Source: Parcubacteria group bacterium
Lineage (GTDB): Bacteria; Patescibacteriota; Minisyncoccia; UBA6257; UBA11618
Length of the DNA stretch: 64,000 bases
Direction: 5' to 3'
Assembly (NCBI GenBank): GCA_943357895.1
Contig: CALRGO010000002.1
Span: 25,926 to 89,925, forward strand
This document shows positions 4,198 to 29,976 of the stretch, one piece after another (position 1 is the first letter of the stretch; every line of letters begins with the position of its first letter). Under the pieces are notes generated by a model. The model had not been told where the DNA came from, made no database searches, and saw only the letters and a list, made by a program, of their open reading frames with translations. A program made the translations under genes and the position numbers.

Positions 4198-4265
4198 TTA
4201 GAACCGTATCATTATAAAGACGGTCGTCGTTATAATGATATGATCGGGTAGTGCTGAGTAAGCCG

Positions 4266-4414
4266 GCGCGCATATACTTCTCGGGAAACGTCCTCGCTGC
4301 TCTCCTGCGGAGCAGCGGGACTCGCTCTCAGCGGCGCAATCGCCTAAAAAGGCGATACCCAGAGCTGCGCCGCCTCCGAGATGTTCCCGATAAGCATATC
4401 CACGCCGTCTTTCC
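4266..4414. repeat. copy A of a diverged inverted structured element (inverted relative to copy B)
   Basis: Reverse complement shares identical 16-mers ggaaagacggcgtgga and ggaacatctcggaggc plus agctctgggta, gagagcga, gcgcgccggct with 5154-5373; nested hairpins 4331-4373. Confidence 0.5.
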
Positions 4415-4488
4415 GCTATGTCAGCGCCATCTAATTATTGTGGATAACTTTTAACGCCCGTTAGCTGGATTATGCAATACTTAGAAGT

Positions 4489-5125
4489 ATGAATAAAAAA
4501 TTCTTACTTATTTCGATTGCCGCCGGCACCTTGCTTGCGGGGGGGGGCTTCAGCAGATGTCGCGGATTCATATAGAGAATGCATAGATACTACCGATAGG
4601 GCTTATTGTGATGCCTTGTTTCCGAGAGAGTTTGTTTATGAAAATGGATCACGATTTGTTAGGGGAAGAGACGGTTTATATTTTTACGAGTACGTTGATA
4701 TTAATGGAAGGATTGTGCGTGATGAGCGTGCGGGTGCGGGATACCCTACCATAGAGTCTATTGTAGAAGATCTTAGTAGAGGTCCTTCGTTGCCGCCCGG
4801 TCACTATCGGTCTTGCCCTTGCGGACCCGCAACGATTTCTTCGAATTCTTGTGCGTCGTGTCCTCCTGCGTACTTCCCTCCCTCTACTTCAGTGCCTAGG
4901 CCGGAAGATTATATTTATTTAATGCATCGTCCGCGTCCCTTGCGAGTGACTCTCTTAAGTCCTGTAGCCCCCTCAAGGACTAGATATTCCCGTCCAAGAA
5001 TAACCCCCGGCACTCCTCCTAGTGTGAGTATTTTACCAACTTGGCTTCTTCGAAATTTATTAGGCAACTCGCCAACGATGGATAGCGGAAGCGGACTCGG
5101 CCCTCGCTCGGGAGGCGAGCGTTAA
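4489..5125 (+). CDS. secreted proline/cysteine-rich protein, reading frame interrupted by +1 frameshift in a G9 homopolymer (4539-4547)
   Basis: ATG at 4489 encodes signal peptide MNKKFLLISIAAGTLLAGG in frame 1, which stops after the G9 run; ORF 4517-5125 continues in frame 2 as ASADVADSYREC...; removing one G fuses them and gives an AxA signal peptidase site (GGASA/DV). Confidence 0.45.
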
Positions 5126-5153
5126 AGTTGCTTCTAGATTTTTATGTCATCGA

Positions 5154-5373
5154 GGAAAGACGGCGTGGACGTGTTTTGAGGAACATCTCGGAGGCCCGAT
5201 AGCTCTGGGTAATTCGCCGCAGCGAATTTATCGGGCCGAGAGCGAATGCCTTTTTTCCGCAGGTGGGGGCTTTCTCTAAATCCGTCGTACGGATTTAGCT
5301 AGAAAACCTTATGCAAAGCGCAGCGGAGCTAACCTTTAGCTGATGTTTCCGAAAAGCACGTGCGCGCCGGCTG
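5154..5373. repeat. copy B of the diverged inverted structured element
   Basis: See copy A; nested hairpin 5193-5237 (outer stem ggcccgata/tatcgggcc, inner attcgc/gcgaat) has the same architecture as 4331-4373 but different stem sequence; about 80 bp extra insertion with two small palindromes. Confidence 0.5.
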
Positions 5374-19283: not shown

Positions 19284-20015
19284 CTACACAGACTTCTTTT
19301 TTTCAAGTGCTTCGAGTGCCTTCTTTGCGGCATCTACTTCTGCCTCTTGCTTTGAGTAGCCAACGCCTTCGGCTACGAACTCGTTTTCGAAGTAGACGCT
19401 TACCTTGAATACCTTGTTATGCTCCGGCCCCGTTTCGCTTATTACGCGGTAGCTCGGCGTCATTTTTTTACTTGCCTGCGTCATTTCCTGCAGGGTGCTC
19501 TTGGGGTCGCGGTGGCTACCATTTTTCATAATCTCGTGCAGATTATTCATAACGAAGTTCGCTACGAAGGTGCGCGCCGCCGTAAGGCCGCCGTCTAAAT
19601 ATAATGCGCCTATCAGCGCCTCCATGGCGTTTGCGATAATCACTTCGCGGGCGCGGCCCGTGTCTTTGGCTTCGCCGCGGGAGAGGAGTACGGACTTTTC
19701 GAGCGCGATATCGTTACCCGCCTTCGCGAGCAACTGGTAATTCACGAGCGCGGCGCGAAGTGATGTGAGCTTACCTTCGTCTTCGTCGGGGAAGCGGTTA
19801 TATAATTCCTCGGTTACCGTAAGTTCGAGTACCGCGTCGCCTAAAAATTCCAGCCGTTCGTTGTGCGGCGTTTCCCACGCGGGGTTTTCGTTGCGGTATG
19901 AGCGGTGCGTTAAAGCCTCCTTTATAAGGGCTTTGGTAGTAAAAGAATAATTGATTGTTTTTTCGAGGCTTGCGCTATTCACTTTTGGGTTGTTCTGCGG
20001 CGGGCGTTTCCCCAT
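19284..20015 (-). CDS. rnc: ribonuclease III
   Basis: [13 protein letters not shown] RNase III signature, C-terminal dsRBD; start may be GTG at 19982 to avoid 41-nt overlap with nusB. Confidence 0.9.
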
Positions 20016-20436
20016 TAACCGCTTCGAGTTCTTTGAAGATAGTCCCCAAAACGCCGTTGATAAATTTACCGGAGTTTGGGCCGCCGTAGTTTTTAACTAT
20101 TTCGATGGCTTCGTTGATGGCGACCTTGGGTGGCACTTCTTCAGGGTTTGCGTAGAGCAGTTCGTAGAGGCCAATGCGCAGGGCGTTGCGGTCGATTATC
20201 GCGATGCGTTCCAAGGGCCATTCGGGGGCTGCCTTTGTGATAACGGCATCAATCGCCTCTATATGTTTTTTTACGCCTTCGGCAATTTTACGCGCAAATT
20301 CGGGCTCGTCGATCCCCGGGGCAAATTCCTCGAGGTTGCGGTCGACGATCTTTTCTAAGTCGTCCTTCTGCCCAAAAAAATCCCATTCATAGAGGGACTG
20401 GAGTACTACGGAGCGCGCTAATTGCCGAGTTGCCAT
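19975..20436 (-). CDS. nusB: transcription antitermination factor NusB
   Basis: Start set at [20 protein letters not shown] (canonical NusB N-terminus); upstream ORF extension to 20700 is non-homologous and overlaps rpmF. Confidence 0.8.
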
Positions 20437-20449
20437 ATGAAGGCAGTAT

Positions 20450-20620
20450 AGAACCCATCTCAAAAATAGTCTAGGAAGACATCCACGCCGCTTTCGGTTA
20501 TTTCCGGCTGCGAATCGCGATTTTCTCCTCGGAATACCTCGGTATTCCTCGTCGAAAAATCCCGTTTCTCGCTCGTAAATACCACGAAACCGCCTGCGGC
20601 CTATTTTTGAGATGGGTTCT
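20450..20620. repeat. MITE-like element: 20-bp perfect terminal inverted repeats flanking 131 bp, immediately 3' of rpmF
   Basis: agaacccatctcaaaaatag (20450-20469) is the exact reverse complement of 20601-20620; internal palindrome ggaatacctcggtattcc (20532-20549); 13-bp direct repeat accgcctgcggcc at 20589 and 20735. Confidence 0.5.
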
Positions 20621-20621
20621 G

Positions 20622-20789
20622 CTACTTCTTGCGGGAAGGGTACGTGCCGCACTGGGCGCACGCTTTGTGGGGAACAATCGGGCCTTTGCATTTTGCGCAT
20701 GCCGCCATGTTCGTTTTCTTCATGGCTAAGTGGGACCGCCTGCGGCCTACTTTGCCCTTGCTGTGATGCTTTACTGGTACGCCTCCCAT
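20622..20789 (-). CDS. rpmF: 50S ribosomal protein L32
   Basis: Unlisted 55-aa minus-strand [58 protein letters not shown]; basic N-terminus plus CxxC...CxxC zinc ribbon typical of L32. Confidence 0.65.
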
Positions 20790-21948: not shown

Positions 21949-22031
21949 TCTGAGATTGGATGCAGAAAATGAATAGCCCGCCGGATGAAAGTCTGGCGGT
22001 TTTTTTATTCTTCCCGCATACTTTTATCGAT

Positions 22032-25000
22032 ATGAAATTCGTCCACCTGCATACCCATAGCCATTATTCTTTGCTCGATGGTTTAGCGAAGCCCACGGAG
22101 CTTGTTGCGCGGGCGAAAGAGTTGGGAATGGAGGCGTTGGCGCTTACCGACCACGGCAACTTATACGGCGCAATCGAGTTTTACCAGCTGGCGAAGAAGG
22201 CGGGCATAAAGCCCATTTTGGGTGTGGAAGCATATATTTGCCCGCGGACGCGCTTTGACAAGGCGCACGGCGCGGACGACAAGAGTTATCACTTAACACT
22301 CCTCGTCGAAAATAAAACGGGCTGGCATAACTTAATGAAGCTCGTCACGAAAGCGAACCTCGAAGGATTTTACTATAAGCCGCGTATGGACCGTGAGTTA
22401 CTTCGTATGCACCACGAGGGGCTCATTGCCCTTTCTGGCTGTGCATCAGGCGAATTAATACGCACTATTTTAAAAAGCGGCATGGTAGCCGCTGAACAAG
22501 TGGTGCGCGACTACGAAGAAATCTTCGGCAAAGGCAATTACTTTTTAGAAATTGGGCACCACCCTAATTTTTCGCCTAAGGATCATGCGGTCGTAAAGCC
22601 TGCGCTCATCGAGCTTTCTAAAAAATTTGGCATACCGCTCGTTGCTACGCAAGATATTCATTATTTAAAAAAGGAGGACGCACAGTACCACGATATACTG
22701 CTCGCGGTCGGTACCGGTAACCGTATAACGGATGAAAAGCGGTTAACGCTGAAGGCCGACGACTTTTCGATGCGTAGTCCCGAAGAAATGGCCGAGTGTT
22801 TTGCCGATTTACCAGAAGCACTTGCGCAGACGGTAGTTATTGCCGAGCGGTGTAATATAGAGCTCACGCTTGGTAAGAGCATTTTACCCGTATTCCCTTT
22901 ACCAGAAGGCGAAACAGATAATTCGTACCTTATGCGGCTTGTGCATGAGCGCACAGCCGGCCGCTACCCTGAAAAAACGAAGGAAGTTGAAGATCGTATT
23001 GCCTATGAGCTTTCCGTCATCGCCGGTACGGGCTACGCTGGCTACTTTCTTATCGTGCAGGATTTTATTAACTGGGCGAAAGATCGCGGTATTGTCGTCG
23101 GCCCTGGCAGAGGCTCCGCTGCCGGCAGTATCACCGCCTATATATTAGGAATCACAAACGTTGATCCCCTGCCTTTCAACTTACTCTTCGAGCGTTTCCT
23201 TAACCCCGACCGTATACAGATGCCGGACATTGACGTGGACATCGCCGACTCCCGCCGCGGGGAAGTCTTGGGCTACTTGAAGGAAAAGTACGGCGACGAC
23301 CGCGTTGCTAACATCATTACGTTCGGTACCATGGCCGCGCGCGCTGCGGTGCGCGACGTTGGGCGCGCTTTGGGTGCTGATTATTCGCTGTGCGACAAGC
23401 TTGCGAAGCTGATCCCTATGAAGGTTGGGCAAGAATTGGCCGCCGCGCTCGAAACCACGGAAGACTTGCGGTCGTTCATCGCGAGCGACCCCATGGCGAA
23501 GCGCATCATAGACGCCGCCGGCCACTTAGAAGGCGTTGCGCGGCACGCTTCGGTGCATGCATGTGGCACCGTGGTAGCCCCTGGTACGCTTTCTGATTAT
23601 CTCCCCTTGCAGTACGCACCGCAGGACCCGTCTACCATCGTCACGCAGTTTGAAATGCATGCCGTTGAATCCTTGGGTATTTTAAAGATGGATATTTTAG
23701 GTTTAAAAAACCTTAGTATTCTTGAAGAGGCAATCCGTTTAGTACGCGAAGCCGGCAAGGGCGAAATCGACGCGAACCATTTGCCGCAGGGCGATGAAAA
23801 AACGTATGCGATGTTGCGGGAGGGCGATACGACGGGCGTCTTCCAGTTCGAATCCGCCGGTATGCGTCGCTATATGAAGCTCTTGAAGCCTAATCAGCTC
23901 GAAGACTTGGTGGCGCTTGTGGCTTTATACCGCCCCGGCCCTATGGAATCTATTCCGTCTTTCATCGACCGCAAGCACGGCAAGGAAAAAATAAAATATT
24001 TGCACCCCAAGCTTGAGCCGATCTTGCGACCAACCTACGGCATTGGCGTGTACCAAGAGCAAATGATGCAAATCGCCCGCGACCTTGCGGGCTACACGCT
24101 GGCCGAAGCCGATACCTTACGTAAGGCTATTGGTAAAAAGATACAATCACTCCTCGACGAGCAGCGCGAAAAGATTATTAAGGGTATGGTTGCGCGCGAT
24201 ATCCCTATGGACGTTGCTAAAGAGATTTGGGAGTTATTTCCCTCGTTTGCCCGCTATGGCTTCAACAAGAGCCACGCTGTGTGCTATGCCGTGATTGGCT
24301 ACCAAACGGCATACCTGAAGGCTAACTATCCGGTTGAGCTTATGACAGCGCTTTTGAATGCCGATGCGGGCGATACCGAGCGTATGACATTCCTTGTTGC
24401 CGAATGCGCGAAGATGGGTATAAAAGTACTACCGCCCGATATAAACAAAAGTGCGGTTCATTTTGCTCCAGAAGAGCAAAATATCCGCTTCGGGTTGCTC
24501 GCTATCAAAAATGTGGGCGCAAATATTGTGGATGCGCTTGTTGCGGAACGGAACGCGGGCGGCCCCTTCGCGACACTTGCGGAGCTTTTGTATCGTGTGC
24601 ACCACAAGGATTTGAATAAGAAGTCACTCGAAAGCCTTATGAAGGCAGGCGCCTTGGATTCGCTCGGTACGAACCGATCCACCCTCATCGGCAACCTCGA
24701 GGAAATTATTAAATTCAGTTCGCTCGTGAAGAAGTCTAAAAACGAATCGCAGGCGGGGCTCTTCGGCGGCGCGGTTATTTCCGCAAACGCACTTAAATTA
24801 ACGCCAATGCCTGAAATCCCTTCCGCTGAACAGCTACAGTGGGAAAAGGAATTAATTGGGTTTTATATATCAAGTCATCCGCTTGAGGCGTACAAGGAAA
24901 AACTTATTGCGATAAAGGCACGGCCGATAAAAGAAGCGTTGCTGGTAAAAGCGGTGAAAGAGGAAGTGATAGTAGGTGGGCTTGTTGCTGCGGTGCGGAA

Positions 25001-25202
25001 AATTATGACCAAAACAAATAAGCCGATGATGTTTGTTACGCTCGAAGACATGGGTGGCACGCTCGACGTTATTGTATTCCCGAAGACTTTAGAGAAAGGT
25101 GAAGAACCGTGGCAGGTTGGTGCTGTTATCGCTATCTTAGGCCACATGTCATGGCGCGACGATGAACCGAGCTTGATAGCAGAGGGTGCTCGCATCCTTT
25201 AA
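22032..25202 (+). CDS. dnaE: DNA polymerase III alpha subunit (compact form)
   Basis: PHP domain start MKFVHLHTHSHYSLLDG, polymerase core, HhH and OB-fold; 1056 aa from internal Met (ORF opens at 21960). Confidence 0.9.
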   Translation: MKFVHLHTHSHYSLLDGLAKPTELVARAKELGMEALALTDHGNLYGAIEFYQLAKKAGIKPILGVEAYICPRTRFDKAHGADDKSYHLTLLVENKTGWHNLMKLVTKANLEGFYYKPRMDRELLRMHHEGLIALSGCASGELIRTILKSGMVAAEQVVRDYEEIFGKGNYFLEIGHHPNFSPKDHAVVKPALIELSKKFGIPLVATQDIHYLKKEDAQYHDILLAVGTGNRITDEKRLTLKADDFSMRSPEEMAECFADLPEALAQTVVIAERCNIELTLGKSILPVFPLPEGETDNSYLMRLVHERTAGRYPEKTKEVEDRIAYELSVIAGTGYAGYFLIVQDFINWAKDRGIVVGPGRGSAAGSITAYILGITNVDPLPFNLLFERFLNPDRIQMPDIDVDIADSRRGEVLGYLKEKYGDDRVANIITFGTMAARAAVRDVGRALGADYSLCDKLAKLIPMKVGQELAAALETTEDLRSFIASDPMAKRIIDAAGHLEGVARHASVHACGTVVAPGTLSDYLPLQYAPQDPSTIVTQFEMHAVESLGILKMDILGLKNLSILEEAIRLVREAGKGEIDANHLPQGDEKTYAMLREGDTTGVFQFESAGMRRYMKLLKPNQLEDLVALVALYRPGPMESIPSFIDRKHGKEKIKYLHPKLEPILRPTYGIGVYQEQMMQIARDLAGYTLAEADTLRKAIGKKIQSLLDEQREKIIKGMVARDIPMDVAKEIWELFPSFARYGFNKSHAVCYAVIGYQTAYLKANYPVELMTALLNADAGDTERMTFLVAECAKMGIKVLPPDINKSAVHFAPEEQNIRFGLLAIKNVGANIVDALVAERNAGGPFATLAELLYRVHHKDLNKKSLESLMKAGALDSLGTNRSTLIGNLEEIIKFSSLVKKSKNESQAGLFGGAVISANALKLTPMPEIPSAEQLQWEKELIGFYISSHPLEAYKEKLIAIKARPIKEALLVKAVKEEVIVGGLVAAVRKIMTKTNKPMMFVTLEDMGGTLDVIVFPKTLEKGEEPWQVGAVIAILGHMSWRDDEPSLIAEGARIL

Positions 25203-25209
25203 TTCTATA

Positions 25210-25250
25210 AAAAAAGAACGCCCGTGCCGGCTAACCGGTTACGGGCGTTT
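25210..25250 (-). terminator. hairpin terminator between dnaE and GNAT gene (functional on minus strand)
   Basis: 9-bp stem aacgcccgt/acgggcgtt; minus strand followed by T-rich tcttttttt. Confidence 0.45.
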
Positions 25251-25863
25251 AAGGAAATGACTTGATTATTCCTTTTCCATCTTTCTTTATGCGGATTGTT
25301 CCCCTTTTAAATCCCCAAGGTGGAGGATATTCAAAAGTGTAGAACGTTGCTGCTGGTTCGCCATATTCTTCGTAAAATTCATGCATTTCCGTTACCACGA
25401 AGCCGATTTTTTTGGATGCGAGAAATAAATGCATGTCTTTATCTTTGTCGCTTACATCAAAGCACAGGCTTTTATTCCATTCCTCCAAAGCTTTTGAAAA
25501 TAGCCGATGCATGAGGCGCATTCCATATCCCTGCCTTCGGTAATCCTTATCGATTTGGAATAGATGAATATATGCTCGGTTGTTTTTTTCCGCAAATGCC
25601 ATTATGCATCCTCTAATAGCATTATCTTCTTCGATGACGAGGCCATAATGGCGATCATCACGCATCCATTCGCGGAATGCATCATATTCATAATTCCAAT
25701 CAGGCCGAGGATTTTGGCTCATAAGGCGCATGATGTGCGGTATGTCACCATAATCCCATTCTCGTATGTTTTTTATAGATTCTTTTTTGCGTAACCATGA
25801 GAACATATAAAACCTCTTTCTTTTTTCGTATTTTTTTGAAAAGTACTCGTTGCAAAGGACCAT
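25249..25863 (-). CDS. GNAT family N-acetyltransferase
   Basis: Acetyl-CoA binding motif A RRQGYGMRLMHRLF; start may be at internal Met (25806). Confidence 0.7.
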   Translation of the reverse strand: MVLCNEYFSKKYEKRKRFYMFSWLRKKESIKNIREWDYGDIPHIMRLMSQNPRPDWNYEYDAFREWMRDDRHYGLVIEEDNAIRGCIMAFAEKNNRAYIHLFQIDKDYRRQGYGMRLMHRLFSKALEEWNKSLCFDVSDKDKDMHLFLASKKIGFVVTEMHEFYEEYGEPAATFYTFEYPPPWGFKRGTIRIKKDGKGIIKSFP

Positions 25864-25941
25864 CCCCTGCCATATTTCGGATAGTACTCTCTCTTTTTAC
25901 GGTTTGCCAGTGCCACGTTTTTCGTTTATCTTTTCATTACT

Positions 25942-27147
25942 ATGGAAGAACCTGAAAAGAAGCATCGTGATCACCGTGAATTAGGGCAGTTGCTTGATTT
26001 ATTTTCGTTCCACGACATCGCCCCCGGCGCTGCTTTTTGGCACCCCAACGGCATGACTATTTTTCGCGTACTTGAATCTGCCGCGCGCCAGATGAACGAC
26101 CGCGCGGGCTATAAAGAAATCTCGACGCCTATTATGGTGAAGAGCGACGTATTTAAAAAATCCGGTCACTGGGAACATTACCGCAAGAACATGTTCCACT
26201 TTGTGAACCCAACGGACGAAAACGAAGAGTTGGCAATAAAGCCGATGAACTGCCCCGAATCGACGTACGTGTTTAACGCTTCGACCCGCAGTTATCGTGA
26301 CATGCCTTTGCGGTTCGCTGAATTGGGGCGCTTACACCGTAACGAGCTTTCGGGAACGTTAGGTGGGCTCTTCCGCGTGCGGCAGATGACGATGGATGAC
26401 GCGCACGTATATTGCCGCCCCGACCAAGTAGAGACGGAGATTCGGCATATCGTGGACCTCACGATGCGTTTTTACGCCGTGTTCGGCTTCAAGCCGACGT
26501 GCGTCTTGGCAACCCGCCCCGAGAAGTTTATGGGCGATGCGGCCGATTGGGATAAGGCCGAGGCGGCTTTGAAGAGCGCCCTTGCGGCAAGCGGTATGGA
26601 ATATGAATTACAAGAAGGCGAAGGCGCCTTCTACGGCCCGAAGATCGAGTTCCACTTGCGTGACTCGCAGGACCGCGATTGGCAGATGGGTACGGCTCAG
26701 CTGGACCTCGTAATGCTTCCTAAACAGTTTGAGACGCAGTACGTGGACGAAAGCGGCGAAAAGAAAATGCCATGGGTGATCCACCGCGCCATATTCGGCA
26801 CCTTTGAGCGCTTCATCGGCATGATGCTCGAGCACACGGATGGCACGCTCCCCGTTTGGCTCGCGCCCGTACAAGCAACAGTGCTTTATGTGAACGACAG
26901 TCAGCGTGCCTATGCAGAGGAAGTGGTTGCAGCGCTCGTAGCGGCCGGCGTGCGTGCAGAACTAGATACGCAAAACGCCACCTTAGGTAAAAAAATCCGC
27001 GCAGCGGAAGTGCTGCGCATCCCCGTGATAGCCGTAATAGGCGAAAAGGAAGTCGCTGCCCGTACCGTAAGCGTACGCAACGACGTAAAGCCGTTCGATG
27101 TCTTCATCGCGGATACTGCTAAAGCGGCGAAGATTCCGATTATTTAG
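25942..27147 (+). CDS. thrS: threonine--tRNA ligase, N-terminally truncated (catalytic + anticodon-binding domains only)
   Basis: Begins at the HRDHRELGQLLDLF motif, which lies ~residue 240 of full-length ThrRS; class II motifs and C-terminal anticodon-binding domain present; no TGS or editing domain encoded upstream. Confidence 0.8.
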   Translation: MEEPEKKHRDHRELGQLLDLFSFHDIAPGAAFWHPNGMTIFRVLESAARQMNDRAGYKEISTPIMVKSDVFKKSGHWEHYRKNMFHFVNPTDENEELAIKPMNCPESTYVFNASTRSYRDMPLRFAELGRLHRNELSGTLGGLFRVRQMTMDDAHVYCRPDQVETEIRHIVDLTMRFYAVFGFKPTCVLATRPEKFMGDAADWDKAEAALKSALAASGMEYELQEGEGAFYGPKIEFHLRDSQDRDWQMGTAQLDLVMLPKQFETQYVDESGEKKMPWVIHRAIFGTFERFIGMMLEHTDGTLPVWLAPVQATVLYVNDSQRAYAEEVVAALVAAGVRAELDTQNATLGKKIRAAEVLRIPVIAVIGEKEVAARTVSVRNDVKPFDVFIADTAKAAKIPII

Positions 27148-27157
27148 TAATAGTAAA

Positions 27158-27191
27158 TAAAAAAACTAAGGAGCTCTTCCTTAGTTTTTTT
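27158..27191. terminator. bidirectional intrinsic terminator between thrS and gatB
   Basis: A8-ctaagga-gctct-tccttag-T7. Confidence 0.65.
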
Positions 27192-27201
27192 ATTCCTTTT
27201 T

Positions 27202-28611
27202 TTATTTAAGTAGACGTTCAAAAATTTCCCTAAGGAGGGCGGGGTTGCCGGTGCCTTTCAGTTCTTTCATTGCCTTACCTACTAAAAAGTGCAGGGATTC
27301 TAGTTTTCCTTTTTTGTAGTCTTCGAGTGCTTTGGGGTTTTCTGCGAGGATTTTTTGCGCCGTTTCTTCGAGTCCTGCCGCGTCTGAAACTTGGTGGAGG
27401 TTTTTTTCGGTAACCGTTGCTTCGGCTGTGGCACCGGTTTTTACCATATGTGTTAAGGCGTCTTTCGCGCCGCGACTACCTACTTCGCCTTTCGCTACCA
27501 TCGCTACGAGGGACGCGAAGTTAGCGGGCGTTAGTTTCAGACCCGTAAATTGCATGCCGTCTTTTTTCATCATTCCCCATAAGTCGCTCGTGAAGTAGTT
27601 GAGGAGTAAGGCGTAGTTGGGTGTGGCGTCGAGTTCTTTGAGTTCGCTTGCCGCTTCCTCAAAGAATTCTGCTGCTGCGCGGTCTTCGGTTACCACATAG
27701 GAATCCACCTCCTTCATGCCGTATTCATTAATAAAGCGCGCGCGCTTTTCGTGCGGTAGTTCAGGGATGGCCGCTTTAAGCGCTTCTAAATCGAAGGCGT
27801 CTGCATACATCGGCGGCAAGTCCGGCTCGGGGAAATAGCGGTAGTCGTGCGCATCTTCTTTCGTGCGCTGGCTTACGGTAATCCCCTTTTCCGCGTTCCA
27901 TCCGCGCGTTTCTTGAATTATTTTTTCACCTGAGTCGAGCGCTGCCGCGTGTCGCTTGTATTCGTATTCAATGGCGTCATGAACGGCCTTAAACGAATTG
28001 ATGTTTTTAACTTCAACTTTCGTGCCCATGTTTATAGAGATGTTGGCTTCCAAGCGCATGAGGCCTTTTTCCATATCAGCGTCGGACGTCCCCAAGTAGC
28101 GTAAAATGCGGCGCAGTTCTTCACCGAAGGCCGCAGCTTCTTCTGCTGTCCTAATATCCGGCTCTGTGACTATTTCCATAAGGGGCGCGCCCGCGCGGTT
28201 AAAATTAACGAGCGATTCGTTTCCAGTGTGCGTCAAGCTGCCCGCGTCTTCTTCTAAATGGATGCGCGTGATGCGGATGCCGTTCAAATTGCCACCTAAA
28301 ACGAGTGGTTCGTCGTACTGCGATATTTGGTAGCCCTTGGGTAGGTCGGGATAAAAATAGTTTTTGCGGTCGAACTTCGACCGGCCTTTAGGGAATACCG
28401 TGCCGCCCAAGGCCAAGCCGAGCTGGAGTACCAGTTCAACGGCCTTCTTATTAATGGTTGGCAGCGTGCCGAGGTGGCCCGTACAGACGGGGCAAACATT
28501 AACGTTCGGATGCGTTTCGTCGGGGTCGTTAACGCAGTCGCAGAACATCTTCGTGCGCGTTTTCAGTTCCACGTGGATTTCGAGACCGACGGTAAGTTGG
28601 CGTTCTTCCAT
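27202..28611 (-). CDS. gatB: Asp-tRNA(Asn)/Glu-tRNA(Gln) amidotransferase subunit B
   Basis: GLEIHVELKTRTKMFCDC N-terminus, GatB/YqeY C-terminal domain. Confidence 0.9.
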   Translation of the reverse strand: MEERQLTVGLEIHVELKTRTKMFCDCVNDPDETHPNVNVCPVCTGHLGTLPTINKKAVELVLQLGLALGGTVFPKGRSKFDRKNYFYPDLPKGYQISQYDEPLVLGGNLNGIRITRIHLEEDAGSLTHTGNESLVNFNRAGAPLMEIVTEPDIRTAEEAAAFGEELRRILRYLGTSDADMEKGLMRLEANISINMGTKVEVKNINSFKAVHDAIEYEYKRHAAALDSGEKIIQETRGWNAEKGITVSQRTKEDAHDYRYFPEPDLPPMYADAFDLEALKAAIPELPHEKRARFINEYGMKEVDSYVVTEDRAAAEFFEEAASELKELDATPNYALLLNYFTSDLWGMMKKDGMQFTGLKLTPANFASLVAMVAKGEVGSRGAKDALTHMVKTGATAEATVTEKNLHQVSDAAGLEETAQKILAENPKALEDYKKGKLESLHFLVGKAMKELKGTGNPALLREIFERLLK

Positions 28612-28620
28612 GCGCTGATT

Positions 28621-29976
28621 CTAGCGGAGACTCCCTAAGTATTCAATTACCGCTGCTTTTGTGGCGTCTCCCCACGACCCCTTGGCATACCTCAAAAGCG
28701 CGCTTGCGAGCCTCCATGCTTGCGGTCCTTTTACTGCCTGCACGACCGCTTCCTGCAGTTCCTCCACCGTGCGTTCGGTGGGCGGTCCATATATGCCGGT
28801 TGCGCCAGTCGTCGCTAATGCCCGCGCCTCCGGCCCCGTGTTCCATTTAATGAGAAGTTCTTGGAGCGCGCGCACGTCCTCTCCCGCATCCCCGCGAATG
28901 AGCGGCGTTTTTATCATGGCCGGATCCTTTTGCGTTGCCGGTGCCGGTACCGGCGTTCCGTTCGCACTTCTCCATTCCGCTACGGCGCGTTGCGTTACCG
29001 GCCCGTAATAGCCCGTCGCCCCCGCAGCCGCAAGTTCTCCCGCAGCCGGTCCGCTCGCGGCACGTATCAAGGCGCCTTGGAGTAACTTGACGTTTTTACC
29101 GCGTTTTTCTTTTTGGGCGCGCTGTATAAGCGTTTCAATGTCGGTTTCTTCTGGCGCTCCCCCTGCGGTGCCTGCAGGGGTGGTGGGGGAAGCCGGTTGG
29201 GTTGCGGCCACCTGAATTAGGGGTTGCGCCGAAGAGTTAAGCCGTACTCCGCCGTTGCGTGCCGCAATTACGACGCCGAATGATCCGTTATTGATATCGC
29301 TCGGCACGGGTTGCGTTCCCCATAGGTCGCTGCCGTTGCCGTACGACCTGAATTCGTCTTGTGCGGGCCACGGCTCTTCTTTGGCATATTCCCCGCCAAC
29401 AATTTTTCCACCCACGACAAGGCGCACGGAATAATCTTTTATTGAGTCAGGGCCCTCGGCAGAACGTTTAAGGTCGAGTGTTATGCCCTTTATAGTGCTT
29501 GATTTTGGAATCGCAAAGCCGAAGTTAAGTGCGCGTATATAATACGATGATTCGCCAAACTGCATTTCTGCCGCTGAACGGTTACCGTCTTCGATACCGG
29601 CATTTTCAGGGTAGAGCCAGCCTGTTCCGCCGACGCTCACGTCGTTTGATACCGACCCGAGCGGCTTCGTTTGGATTTTTCCATTATCGTAATGGACGGT
29701 AAGGCGTAGATAGTCGATACGCGCCTTGGTTTTAGGCGAATACGAATAACCTCCGCCACCGCCTCCTCCTCCCCCGCCACCGCCCGAACCGCTGCTCGTG
29801 CCGCCGCTGTCGCCGAAGGCAATGTTGTATGAGAGTGGAAGTGACGAGGAGTTAAGGAACGCGCCACCGCCTACGAATATGAAAAAGAAAAGAATGCCGA
29901 CTGCCGATTTGGCATTTTGGCTTCCTCGCTCGTCCGCGAGCATACGAAAAAATTTCCGCCTGAGCTGTTGCGTCAT
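28621..29976 (-). CDS. secreted/membrane-anchored glycine-rich protein with two putative peptidoglycan-binding domains
   Basis: N-terminal TM; poly-Gly tract (GGGGGGGGGGGG); two GATGYYGP/TGATGIYGP repeats typical of PG_binding_1. Confidence 0.6.
   Translation of the reverse strand: MTQQLRRKFFRMLADERGSQNAKSAVGILFFFIFVGGGAFLNSSSLPLSYNIAFGDSGGTSSGSGGGGGGGGGGGGYSYSPKTKARIDYLRLTVHYDNGKIQTKPLGSVSNDVSVGGTGWLYPENAGIEDGNRSAAEMQFGESSYYIRALNFGFAIPKSSTIKGITLDLKRSAEGPDSIKDYSVRLVVGGKIVGGEYAKEEPWPAQDEFRSYGNGSDLWGTQPVPSDINNGSFGVVIAARNGGVRLNSSAQPLIQVAATQPASPTTPAGTAGGAPEETDIETLIQRAQKEKRGKNVKLLQGALIRAASGPAAGELAAAGATGYYGPVTQRAVAEWRSANGTPVPAPATQKDPAMIKTPLIRGDAGEDVRALQELLIKWNTGPEARALATTGATGIYGPPTERTVEELQEAVVQAVKGPQAWRLASALLRYAKGSWGDATKAAVIEYLGSLR

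What the first reader, a model, noticed from the sequence alone, without database searches (positions are those of the whole stretch)
25942..27147. Minimal threonyl-tRNA synthetase lacking TGS and cis-editing domains
The ORF starts at the HRDHRELG motif that normally lies ~240 residues into ThrRS. The upstream sequence is the divergent GNAT gene, so no N-terminal editing domain can be encoded here. Without editing, Ser mischarging would need a trans-editing factor or be tolerated.
Basis: partly seen in the sequence, partly recalled or inferred. Interest (0 to 1): 0.5.

Follow-up and report, generated by a model that had tools for sequence, protein, structure and literature searches.

The report
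Editing-domain-less threonyl-tRNA synthetase, clade-wide
This ultra-small (Parcubacteria/CPR) bacterium encodes an intact, strongly conserved threonyl-tRNA synthetase that lacks the whole proofreading module; its entire clade shares this short form, which resembles known minimalist enzymes such as the yeast mitochondrial one.

Summary
ORF 25942-27147 (+) encodes a 401-aa threonyl-tRNA synthetase (ThrRS) made only of the class II catalytic core and the anticodon-binding domain. It aligns to E. coli ThrRS residues 238-610, nearly the boundaries of the engineered deltaN enzyme (PDB 1EVK). An in-frame TAG at 25882-25884 and a divergent GNAT gene leave no room for an N-terminal domain. Three independent assemblies give the same gene, and dN/dS is 0.04.

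The short form is shared by a monophyletic Parcubacteria clade (Harrison-, Yanofsky-, Lipton-, Giovannonibacteria): all 120 nearest protein clusters and all 17 reference-genome loci. Other CPR lineages (Dojka-, Shapiro-, Buchananbacteria) keep a ~580-aa form with an intact N2 editing site.

The short clade also carries fixed changes next to catalytic residues, including Gln381 to Met (Gln381 contacts the substrate carboxyl) and Phe379 to Ile/Leu/Met.

No editing-domain gene was found in the window, in 17 related loci, or as a free-standing gene among 80 metagenome loci. Whole genomes could not be searched.

Most likely this is the sole housekeeping ThrRS, with fidelity resting on the synthetic site or on tolerated Thr-to-Ser errors. 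It is a new member of a known kind. Interest is moderate.

The parts
25942..27147 (+). thrS: 401-aa threonyl-tRNA synthetase with catalytic core plus anticodon-binding domain only
   Evidence: The ORF is listed. TIGR00418 scores 477.7 bits, above its cutoff. It aligns to E. coli ThrRS 238-610 at E = 5e-109. dN/dS is 0.04 against L001 and L002.
26215..26835 (+). Class II aaRS catalytic core (Pfam tRNA-synt_2b, aa 92-298)
   Evidence: Pfam E = 6.5e-41. The invariants are present: H76 (Ec H309), C104 (C334), R133 (R363), D153 (D383), H155 (H385), Y231 (Y462), K234 (K465), Q253 (Q484), H281 (H511) and R290 (R520).
26872..27081 (+). Anticodon-binding domain (Pfam HGTP_anticodon, aa 311-380)
   Evidence: Pfam E = 3.2e-16.
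26386..26394 (+). Motif-2 strand codons M149-T150-M151. These correspond to E. coli F379-T380-Q381. Both F379 and Q381 are replaced in this clade.
   Evidence: Q381 is Met in 119-120 of the ~120 short-clade sequences. It is Gln in 89/93 full-length representatives, 111/112 N2-containing CPR-type enzymes and 118/119 Myxococcota-type short enzymes. Gln381 H-bonds the threonine carboxyl in E. coli ThrRS (PMC9880928).
26257..26262 (+). E106-S107 (E. coli G336-H337), two and three residues after the zinc ligand Cys; clade-specific
   Evidence: S107 is invariant in the short clade. The position is His in 67/93 full-length representatives.
25882..25884 (+). In-frame TAG that closes the thrS reading frame upstream
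25864..25941 (.). 78-bp divergent intergenic region. A promoter-like site lies at 25904-25932. There is no Shine-Dalgarno-like sequence and no room for a T-box or other leader.
   Evidence: Rfam finds nothing here.
25249..25863 (-). Divergent GNAT acetyltransferase gene of generic type, bounding thrS on the 5' side
   Evidence: Pfam Acetyltransf_1 E = 2.2e-12. It has only sub-threshold NCBIfam hits. Other assemblies call it at 185 aa.
27156..27194 (.). 18-bp-stem hairpin with T/A runs on both sides: a bidirectional terminator shared by the convergent thrS and gatB genes
27202..28611 (-). gatB (Asp/Glu-tRNA amidotransferase subunit B), a conserved convergent neighbour
   Evidence: Pfam GatB_N E = 3e-102. 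The dnaE-thrS-gatB order is also seen in L001, L002 and L027.
21960..25202 (+). dnaE (DNA polymerase III alpha, 1080 aa), a conserved upstream neighbour
   Evidence: In the Yanofskybacteria locus L027, dnaE ends 28 bp before the short thrS.

Best explanation
Shown: this gene encodes a catalytically intact, bacterial-type ThrRS that lacks the entire N-terminal module (the N1/TGS domain and the N2 post-transfer editing domain). The enzyme is under strong purifying selection. It sits among core housekeeping genes (dnaE, gatB). The same ~400-aa architecture is shared by a monophyletic clade of Parcubacteria (CPR/Patescibacteria). Sister CPR lineages retain a ~580-aa form with an intact N2 editing site, so the loss is a derived, clade-wide trait.

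Inferred: this is the organism's only ThrRS. It charges tRNA-Thr through its anticodon-binding domain and catalytic core, as the engineered E. coli deltaN enzyme does. It cannot hydrolyse Ser-tRNA-Thr in cis. Serine errors are therefore limited only by the zinc-containing synthetic site, through kinetic discrimination and/or pre-transfer hydrolysis of Ser-AMP as in yeast mitochondrial ThrRS. Whatever passes that filter is tolerated as low-level Thr-to-Ser mistranslation. The fixed substitutions around the pocket (Q381M, F379 to Ile/Leu/Met, H337S, W304F, F387Y, C480M, and F487L with a one-residue insertion) may be part of that adaptation.
For: Identity and integrity:
- TIGR00418 scores above its cutoff.
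- The protein matches E. coli ThrRS at E = 5e-109.
- The Zn ligands and the Thr/ATP-binding invariants are all present.
- dN/dS is 0.04.
- Three independent assemblies give the same gene.

No N-terminal module:
- Pfam and NCBIfam find none.
- An in-frame stop and a divergent gene lie upstream.
- An N1+N2 profile built from 93 full-length enzymes finds nothing in any frame of the window or of the 17 CPR loci.

Clade-wide trait:
- The 120 nearest 90%-identity clusters are all 392-437 aa with the same two Pfam domains. Their core motif starts within 45 residues of the N-terminus.
- All 17 GTDB Patescibacteria loci encode ~400-aa forms.
- The clade is monophyletic with a long stem in an NJ tree.

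Derived loss:
- 112 N2-containing relatives include proteins named Dojka-, Shapiro- and Buchananbacteria.
- They keep the editing residues H73, H77, K156, D180, C182 and H186.
- Candidate-phylum names in the short and N2-containing sets do not overlap.

Pocket remodelling:
- Eight of nine fixed changes lie within 6 residues of a catalytic residue (Fisher p = 0.03).
- Q381 contacts the substrate carboxyl (PMC9880928).

Precedent:
- The editing-domain-less yeast mitochondrial ThrRS performs pre-transfer editing in the catalytic core (PMC4267643).

No free-standing N2 gene:
- None of the 80 metagenome loci retrieved with a CPR-type N2 profile carries a clearly free-standing N2 gene.
Against: - Only 64 kb of this genome and about 20 kb around thrS in relatives could be inspected. 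A trans-editing gene or a second thrS elsewhere cannot be excluded.
- Short ThrRS forms also exist in large free-living Myxococcota genomes. There they are probably extra copies, so short does not by itself mean sole.
- The link between the pocket substitutions and fidelity is inference. They could be neutral lineage markers on a long branch. The enrichment test is only p = 0.03 and uses sequence distance, not 3D distance.
- From memory (Dock-Bregeon et al. 2000, Cell): the engineered E. coli deltaN enzyme mischarges tRNA-Thr with serine. A bare core is therefore not intrinsically accurate.
Confidence: 0.62

Rival explanations
1. Split system: the short enzyme is the catalytic half of a two-gene arrangement. 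A free-standing deacylase encoded elsewhere in the genome clears Ser-tRNA-Thr in trans. Candidates are an N2/tRNA_SAD protein, an AlaX-like protein, an archaeal-type ThrRS-ed or a ProXp-type protein. The precedent is the crenarchaeal ThrRS-cat plus ThrRS-ed pair.
For: - The precedent exists in Crenarchaeota (cited in PMC4787780).
- Free-standing tRNA_SAD ORFs occur in co-occurring ultra-small archaea, for example L016 12342-13043 in a Woesearchaeota MAG.
- More than 90% of this genome was not available for inspection.
Against: - No N1/N2, archaeal-type ED, DTD or YbaK homologue was found in the 64-kb window or in the 17 CPR loci.
- None of 80 metagenome loci found with a CPR-type N2 profile is a clear stand-alone N2 gene. 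All continue into a catalytic core or run off the contig, except L060.
- No conserved neighbour of the short thrS looks like a deacylase.
Confidence: 0.25
2. Auxiliary paralogue: the genome also has a normal N2-containing thrS, and this short copy is a second enzyme. It might be stress- or antibiotic-related, or edited in trans by the long copy, as proposed for duplicated ThrRS in Anabaena.
For: - A separate ~400-aa ThrRS family is widespread in Myxococcota with 10-16 Mb genomes.
- Trans-editing between duplicated ThrRS is documented (PMC4787780).
- N2-containing ThrRS exist in other CPR lineages.
Against: - The short gene lies in a conserved dnaE-thrS-gatB housekeeping context in all relatives.
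- dN/dS is 0.04.
- It passes the thrS equivalog cutoff.
- The named lineages carrying short forms and N2-containing forms do not overlap.
- From general knowledge: CPR genomes are below about 1 Mb and rarely duplicate synthetases.
- The short clade has no close full-length relative. The best is 48-50% identical and comes from unrelated taxa.
Confidence: 0.1
3. Artefact: a truncated gene call, a pseudogene remnant or a misassembly has hidden the N-terminal domains.
For: Some database relatives are annotated longer, at 421-439 aa.
Against: - Those extensions are unconserved. They precede an internal Met that aligns with the start used here.
- An in-frame stop and an opposite-strand gene lie upstream.
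- The gene is identical in three assemblies.
- More than 120 clusters share the same boundary.
- Purifying selection is strong.
Confidence: 0.01

Closest known systems
Engineered E. coli deltaN-ThrRS (residues 242-642; PDB 1EVK/1EVL/1FYF/1KOG)
   Same: The boundaries are almost identical. Both proteins are 401 aa, and query residues 9-380 align to chain residues 1-369 at E = 1e-108. Both have the same two domains, the same zinc triad and the same Thr-binding residues.
   Different: The window protein is a natural gene that is conserved across a clade. It carries fixed pocket changes that E. coli lacks (Q381M, F379M, H337S, G336E, W304F, F387Y, C480M, an insertion after 487) and a C-terminus about 11 residues shorter.
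Yeast mitochondrial 'minimalist' ThrRS (MST1; PDB 3UGQ/4EO4)
   Same: It is a natural ThrRS made only of a catalytic core and a tRNA-binding domain, with no editing domain. It serves as the only ThrRS of its translation system and shows pre-transfer editing in the catalytic core (PMC4267643).
   Different: The loss is independent. The window protein is much closer to bacterial ThrRS (368 bits to E. coli) than to MST1 (259 bits). MST1 serves a translation system that makes only a handful of proteins (general knowledge), whereas here a whole cellular proteome depends on the enzyme. Pre-transfer editing has not been tested here.
Crenarchaeal split ThrRS (ThrRS-cat such as Aeropyrum pernix ThrRS-1, PDB 3A31, plus free-standing ThrRS-ed)
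   Same: It has a catalytic enzyme without a cis-editing domain. It is the precedent for trans-editing of Ser-tRNA-Thr (references in PMC4787780).
   Different: The window protein is bacterial-type, not archaeal-type. The archaeal thrS model NF003068 scores 177 bits against a cutoff of 484, and 3A31 scores 176 bits. No ThrRS-ed partner was found in the sequence available.
Degenerate or missing ThrRS editing in host-restricted bacteria (Mycoplasma; small-genome symbionts)
   Same: Genome reduction is associated with loss of synthetase proofreading (review PMC7373986). A 410-aa short ThrRS occurs in the endosymbiont Ca. Providencia siddallii.
   Different: Per the review, Mycoplasma retain a degenerate, inactive editing domain. 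In the symbiont the loss looks recent and lineage-local, since P0191 is nearest to E. coli ThrRS in the NJ tree. Here the deletion is clean at the domain boundary. It is shared by a large environmental clade and is accompanied by a remodelled pocket.
N1-less, N2-containing ThrRS of other CPR lineages, Clostridia and some DPANN archaea (~575-600 aa)
   Same: These are the architecturally nearest relatives within the radiation. They have the same core and anticodon-binding domain and also lack TGS.
   Different: They keep PF07973 with the editing residues H73, H77, K156, D180, C182 and H186, and they keep Q381, W304 and F379.

Membership tests
Threonine-tRNA ligase (bacterial type, NCBIfam TIGR00418 thrS) | Whole-protein score above the curated equivalog cutoff | tested here: met
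   The score is 477.7 bits against a cutoff of 383.65.
Threonine-tRNA ligase (bacterial type, NCBIfam TIGR00418 thrS) | Class IIa catalytic core plus HGTP anticodon-binding domain | tested here: met
   PF00587 has E = 6.5e-41 and PF03129 has E = 3.2e-16.
Threonine-tRNA ligase (bacterial type, NCBIfam TIGR00418 thrS) | Zinc triad (Ec C334, H385, H511) and the threonine/adenylate contacts D383, Y462, K465, Q484, R363, R520 and H309 | tested here: met
   All are present in the query and invariant in the ~120 clade members. The one exception is the substrate contact Q381, which is Met.
Threonine-tRNA ligase (bacterial type, NCBIfam TIGR00418 thrS) | Canonical N-terminal module: TGS (N1) plus tRNA_SAD editing domain (N2) | tested here: not met
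   Pfam gives no hit for either domain. The TIGR00418 match starts at profile position 166. The N1+N2 HMM finds nothing in the window. The module is not needed for aminoacylation, so this affects the architecture and not the enzyme class.
Threonine-tRNA ligase (bacterial type, NCBIfam TIGR00418 thrS) | Threonylation of tRNA-Thr | not testable with these tools
   This needs an enzyme assay.
Minimalist (editing-domain-less) sole ThrRS, as in yeast mitochondria | Catalytic core plus tRNA-binding domain only | tested here: met
Minimalist (editing-domain-less) sole ThrRS, as in yeast mitochondria | Only ThrRS serving the translation system | not testable with these tools
Minimalist (editing-domain-less) sole ThrRS, as in yeast mitochondria | Pre-transfer hydrolysis of Ser-AMP in the synthetic site | not testable with these tools
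   This is a biochemical property shown for ScmtThrRS (PMC4267643).
Minimalist (editing-domain-less) sole ThrRS, as in yeast mitochondria | Common descent with MST1 | tested here: not met
   The protein is closer to bacterial ThrRS (368 bits) than to MST1 (259 bits). It forms its own clade among bacterial-type enzymes, so the loss is independent.
Split ThrRS-cat / ThrRS-ed system (Crenarchaeota) | Free-standing Ser-tRNA-Thr hydrolase gene (PF08915-type or N2-type) in the genome | tested here: inconclusive
   None was found in the window, in the 17 CPR loci or among 80 metagenome N2 loci. More than 90% of the genome is unseen.
Split ThrRS-cat / ThrRS-ed system (Crenarchaeota) | Archaeal-type catalytic subunit | tested here: not met
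   NF003068 scores 177 bits against a cutoff of 484.
Myxococcota-type ~400-aa ThrRS family | Sequence affiliation with that family | tested here: not met
   That family keeps Q381, H337, W304 and F379. It falls outside the monophyletic CPR short clade in the NJ tree.

The most novel reading that the evidence does not exclude
A large environmental bacterial clade runs its whole proteome on a ThrRS with no post-transfer editing and no trans-editing partner. It has compensated by rebuilding the first and second shell of the amino-acid/adenylate pocket (Q381M, F379 to Ile/Leu/Met, H337S, W304F, F387Y, C480M, an insertion after 487). This would be an editing-independent solution to the threonine/serine discrimination problem that could be transplanted and tested in E. 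coli deltaN-ThrRS.
Probability: 0.25. Interest if true: 0.65.

Novelty: new member of a known kind. Interest (0 to 1): 0.4.

Why it matters
ThrRS is a textbook case of zinc-mediated selection plus N2 post-transfer editing, and papers state that bacterial ThrRS contain the N2 domain (PMC4787780, PMC4267643). This window shows that a whole, widespread Parcubacteria clade dispenses with N2 while sister CPR lineages keep it.

That gives a natural paired comparison for asking how much proofreading a cell needs. It also yields specific residues (Q381M and its neighbours) that can be tested for editing-free serine rejection.

If no compensating mechanism exists, these organisms would be environmental, non-intracellular examples of constitutive Thr-to-Ser mistranslation. 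For annotation, the ~400-aa length is genuine and should not be flagged as partial.

Tried and rejected
- **Upstream extension or hidden exon-like ORF.** Rejected: there is an in-frame TAG at 25882-25884, no alternative start, and an opposite-strand GNAT gene.
- **A DTD next to thrS in L002.** The 145-aa ORF between thrS and gatB is a secreted low-complexity protein, not a deacylase.
- **A weak DTD tblastn hit in L027 (E = 0.07).** It falls inside gatB and is spurious.
- **Editing-factor search in the window.** Pfam and NCBIfam scans of about 40 window ORFs found no tRNA_SAD, tRNA-Thr_ED, YbaK or DTD domain.
- **Representatives search.** It returned no close hit for the clade (best 48% identity). 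It was useful only for sampling full-length and other short forms.
- **Literature.** Six searches combining ThrRS, editing or mistranslation with CPR or Patescibacteria found no paper describing this. The most relevant survey, Melnikov et al. 2018 PNAS (PMC6298100), is not held. I therefore cannot say whether CPR genomes were covered there.
- **RNA leader.** Rfam found no T-box or other leader at thrS.
- **GNAT as an aminoacyl-tRNA acetyltransferase partner.** Considered because of adjacency. It has only generic, sub-threshold family hits, and the adjacency is not conserved outside close relatives.
- **MST1 at the signature positions.** Not possible, because the PDB tool prints only the top alignments.
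- **Structure prediction.** Not run. Sequence identity to solved ThrRS structures already fixes the fold.
Full report
**1. The observation**

The window contains an ATG-initiated ORF at 25942..27147 (+) of 401 codons, beginning MEEPEKKHRDHRELGQ.
- Reading the frame upstream gives a TAG at 25882-25884, with no ATG/GTG/TTG in between.
- The next gene upstream, at 25249..25863, is on the opposite strand. It is a generic GNAT acetyltransferase (Pfam Acetyltransf_1 E = 2.2e-12; only sub-threshold NCBIfam hits).
- The 78-bp gap holds one promoter-like site at 25904-25932, whose -10 element ends 9 nt before the ATG. It has no Shine-Dalgarno-like sequence and no Rfam leader.
- Downstream, an 18-bp-stem hairpin flanked by T/A runs (27156-27194) separates thrS from the convergent gatB gene.

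There is therefore no coding space for an N-terminal domain.

**2. What the protein is**

- Pfam finds only the class II core (tRNA-synt_2b, aa 92-298, E = 6.5e-41) and the HGTP anticodon-binding domain (aa 311-380, E = 3.2e-16).
- The NCBIfam thrS equivalog TIGR00418 scores 477.7 bits against a cutoff of 383.65, but only from profile position 166 onward. The archaeal-type thrS model stays far below its cutoff.
- Against PDB sequences, residues 5-380 align to E. coli ThrRS 238-610 (E = 5e-109). Residues 9-380 align to residues 1-369 of the engineered N-truncated E. coli enzyme 1EVK, which is also 401 aa.
- I recalled the E. coli sequence from memory. Its length (642 aa) and the residues expected at the zinc-ligand positions 334, 385 and 511 check out. 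Aligned to it, the query keeps H309, C334, R363, E365, R375, D383, H385, Y462, K465, Q479, T482, Q484, H511 and R520.
- The identical gene with identical neighbours occurs in three independent assemblies.
- Against the two closest genomes (85-87% nucleotide identity), dN/dS is 0.04.

This is a functional, selected gene. It is not a fragment, pseudogene or miscall.

**3. Distribution of the short form**

- The 120 nearest 90%-identity clusters (95% down to 63% identity) are all 392-437 aa with the same two Pfam domains. Named members are Patescibacteria: Paceibacterota, Yanofsky-, Lipton- and Harrisonbacteria.
- In all of them the DHRxxG motif starts within 45 residues of the N-terminus. The few longer calls have an internal Met where this gene starts.
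- A scan of GTDB species genomes found 17 Patescibacteria loci. Every one has a ~400-aa ORF closed by an upstream stop. The closest is Ca. Harrisonbacteria nzgw435 at 95% identity.
- In the Yanofskybacteria locus L027, dnaE ends 28 bp before the short thrS.
- Non-CPR hits from the same scan carry N-terminal extensions:

| Length | N-terminal content | Loci |
|---|---|---|
| 640-650 aa | N1 + N2 | Gemmatimonadota, Vicinamibacteria, Chlamydiae |
| 570-580 aa | N2 only | Clostridia, a Woesearchaeota MAG |
| ~570 aa | archaeal-type editing domain on a bacterial-like core | Nanoarchaeia |

- In an NJ tree of core regions, the CPR short clade is monophyletic with a long stem (0.22). Its nearest full-length relatives are only 48-50% identical and come from unrelated taxa.

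**4. Other CPR lineages keep editing**

I searched with P0218, a Patescibacteria fragment outside the clade. It returned 112 proteins of about 575-600 aa carrying PF07973 (tRNA_SAD) without TGS. Named members include Dojkabacteria, Shapirobacteria, Buchananbacteria and 'Patescibacteria group'.
- These proteins keep the editing residues H73, H77, K156, D180, C182 and H186.
- NCBI places Buchananbacteria and Harrisonbacteria both in the Parcubacteria group. The loss of N2 therefore happened inside that group.
- Candidate-phylum names in the short and N2-containing sets do not overlap. This is weak but consistent evidence that the two forms are alternatives, not co-resident paralogues.

**5. Short ThrRS elsewhere**

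About 17 of the 150 best 50%-identity representatives are also short, and they are scattered among full-length enzymes.
- One is from the leech endosymbiont Ca. Providencia siddallii. It is 410 aa and is nearest to E. coli ThrRS.
- Another seeds a large ~400-aa family in Myxococcota (Myxococcus, Stigmatella, Corallococcus, Sorangium), whose genomes are 10-16 Mb.
- A few others are fragments.

The domain deletion has therefore happened repeatedly. The architecture as such is not unique.

**6. A remodelled pocket specific to this clade**

I compared about 120 clade members with three sets: 93 full-length representatives, 112 N2-containing CPR-type enzymes and 119 Myxococcota-type short enzymes. 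The comparison shows fixed differences in this clade only (E. coli numbering):
- W304F
- G336E and H337S
- F379 to Ile/Leu/Met
- Q381M (119-120 of ~120, against Gln in 89/93, 111/112 and 118/119)
- F387Y (not exclusive to the clade: Tyr also predominates, 92/112, in the N2-containing CPR-type enzymes)
- C480M
- F487L plus a one-residue insertion
- R492Q
- V508W

According to PMC9880928, in E. coli ThrRS Gln381 and Gln484 H-bond the threonine carboxyl, Asp383 H-bonds the beta-hydroxyl and Tyr462 H-bonds the amino group. From memory, Phe379 is the motif-2 residue that stacks on the adenine.

Among 125 columns conserved in full-length enzymes, 9 are fixed differently in the clade. Eight of those nine lie within six residues of a catalytic residue (8/63 against 1/62, Fisher p = 0.03). 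This is suggestive, not proof. The test uses linear distance, and the clade sits on a long branch.

**7. Search for a compensating editor**

- Pfam and NCBIfam scans of about 40 window ORFs found housekeeping genes (cysS, dnaE, gatB, trmD, nusB and others) and a roughly 30-kb envelope-glycan cluster. They found no tRNA_SAD, tRNA-Thr_ED, YbaK/ProX or DTD domain.
- tblastn with N-terminal modules of nine full-length relatives found nothing in the window or any CPR locus. A profile HMM of 93 N1+N2 modules run against all six-frame ORFs also found nothing there. The only free-standing hit is in the Woesearchaeota locus L016.
- A metagenome scan with a CPR-type N2 alignment returned 80 loci. All continue into a catalytic core or run off the contig, except L060, which stops 120 residues after N2.

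These negatives cover only a small fraction of each genome. The trans-editing rival therefore remains open.

**8. Mechanism**

*Shown:* an intact bacterial-type ThrRS core with its anticodon-binding domain and no cis post-transfer editing domain. It is conserved clade-wide.

*Inferred:* it is the sole ThrRS, and it recognises tRNA-Thr as the E. coli deltaN enzyme does. Serine that is activated is either rejected in the synthetic site or incorporated at threonine codons and tolerated. Rejection in the synthetic site would follow the pre-transfer editing shown for the minimalist yeast mitochondrial ThrRS (PMC4267643). Tolerance would follow what has been reported for Mycoplasma and other reduced genomes (PMC7373986).

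My estimates are:

| Reading | Confidence |
|---|---|
| Sole, editing-free ThrRS | ~0.6 |
| Unseen trans-editing factor | ~0.25 |
| Co-resident long thrS | ~0.1 |
| Artefact | ~0.01 |

**9. Comparison with the known, and novelty**

Editing-domain-less ThrRS are established in yeast mitochondria and, as one half of a split system, in Crenarchaeota. Degenerate editing is known in host-restricted bacteria. Databases already annotate these CPR proteins as threonine-tRNA ligase. The finding is therefore a new member of a known kind.

What appears not to be described in the literature I could search:
- The loss is clade-wide in environmental Parcubacteria.
- Sister CPR lineages retain N2.
- The short clade has a distinctive pocket (Q381M and neighbours).

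Papers still state that bacterial ThrRS contain N2. One relevant genome survey (PMC6298100) could not be read, so prior mention cannot be excluded.

**10. Verdict**

Interest is moderate at 0.4. The most novel reading not excluded is editing-independent Thr/Ser discrimination through pocket remodelling. I give it probability ~0.25 and interest ~0.65 if true.

Noticed in passing
window 4253-4423 (+) and 5145-5218 (inverted partial copy); L001 3400-3570 and 4781-4939: A ~170-nt strongly structured element (fold z = -5.4 and -6.2 on the two strands) with no Rfam family. It occurs as inverted copies bracketing a single secreted-protein ORF. In the related contig L001 the same pair brackets a 377-aa Cys-rich secreted protein inserted exactly between thrS and gatB. 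It looks like a small mobile or hypervariable cassette with long structured inverted repeats.
   Followed up: partly
window about 4489-5125: A signal-peptide ORF starts at ATG 4489. A run of nine G at about 4536-4544 lies between it and the 4517-5125 ORF, which is in another frame. This could be a phase-variable tract or an assembly error in a secreted-protein gene.
   Followed up: no
thrS-gatB gap: window 27148-27201; L002 11259-11696; L001 3381-4953: The gap is 54 bp (terminator only) in the window. In the closest relatives it holds a 145-aa secreted ORF (L002) or a 1.5-kb cassette (L001). It appears to be an insertion hot spot.
   Followed up: partly
proteins P0308-P0426: Myxococcota (Myxococcus, Stigmatella, Corallococcus, Sorangium; 10-16 Mb genomes) carry their own conserved ~400-aa ThrRS family without N1/N2. 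This is presumably a second copy of unknown role.
   Followed up: partly
L017 3437-5143, L019 9494-11203, protein P0133: Nanoarchaeia and DPANN ThrRS of ~570 aa have a core ~49% identical to the window's bacterial-type ThrRS. That core is fused to an archaeal-type N-terminal editing domain (MKILTLHVDY...; PF08915 in relatives).
   Followed up: no
L016 3737-5452 and 12342-13043 (-): A Woesearchaeota MAG has a bacterial-type ThrRS with N2 but no TGS. About 7 kb away it also has a free-standing tRNA_SAD-like ORF of ~233 aa (HMM E = 5.8e-07).
   Followed up: no
L026 343-1563; protein P0191: Short ThrRS forms also occur in a MAG labelled Gammaproteobacteria (406 aa, 46% identity) and in the endosymbiont Ca. 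Providencia siddallii (410 aa). These are independent losses of the editing module.
   Followed up: partly
L060 (metagenome contig BNJS01001823.1) 4001-4498: An N2-containing ORF ends 120 residues after the N2 domain, and not at a contig end. It is either a frameshifted thrS or a rare truncated form.
   Followed up: no
window 19975-20700 (-): The NusB ORF is 241 aa, but the NusB domain covers only residues 95-221. Gene callers in other assemblies disagree on the start (153 against 238 aa). This may be a CPR-specific N-terminal extension.
   Followed up: no
window 28621-29976 (-): A 451-aa protein has an N-terminal membrane anchor, a run of about 15 glycines and a C-terminal peptidoglycan-binding repeat. 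Only the repeat has a Pfam family.
   Followed up: no
window about 31500-61900: A roughly 30-kb envelope-glycan cluster is unusually rich in SAM methyltransferases (at least eight). It also has glycosyltransferases, an epimerase, a polysaccharide deacetylase, a UbiA-type prenyltransferase, an acyltransferase and several large membrane proteins with no family.
   Followed up: no
window 25904-25941: The only promoter-like site upstream of thrS ends 9 nt before the ATG, and there is no Shine-Dalgarno-like sequence. The mRNA may be leaderless or nearly so.
   Followed up: no
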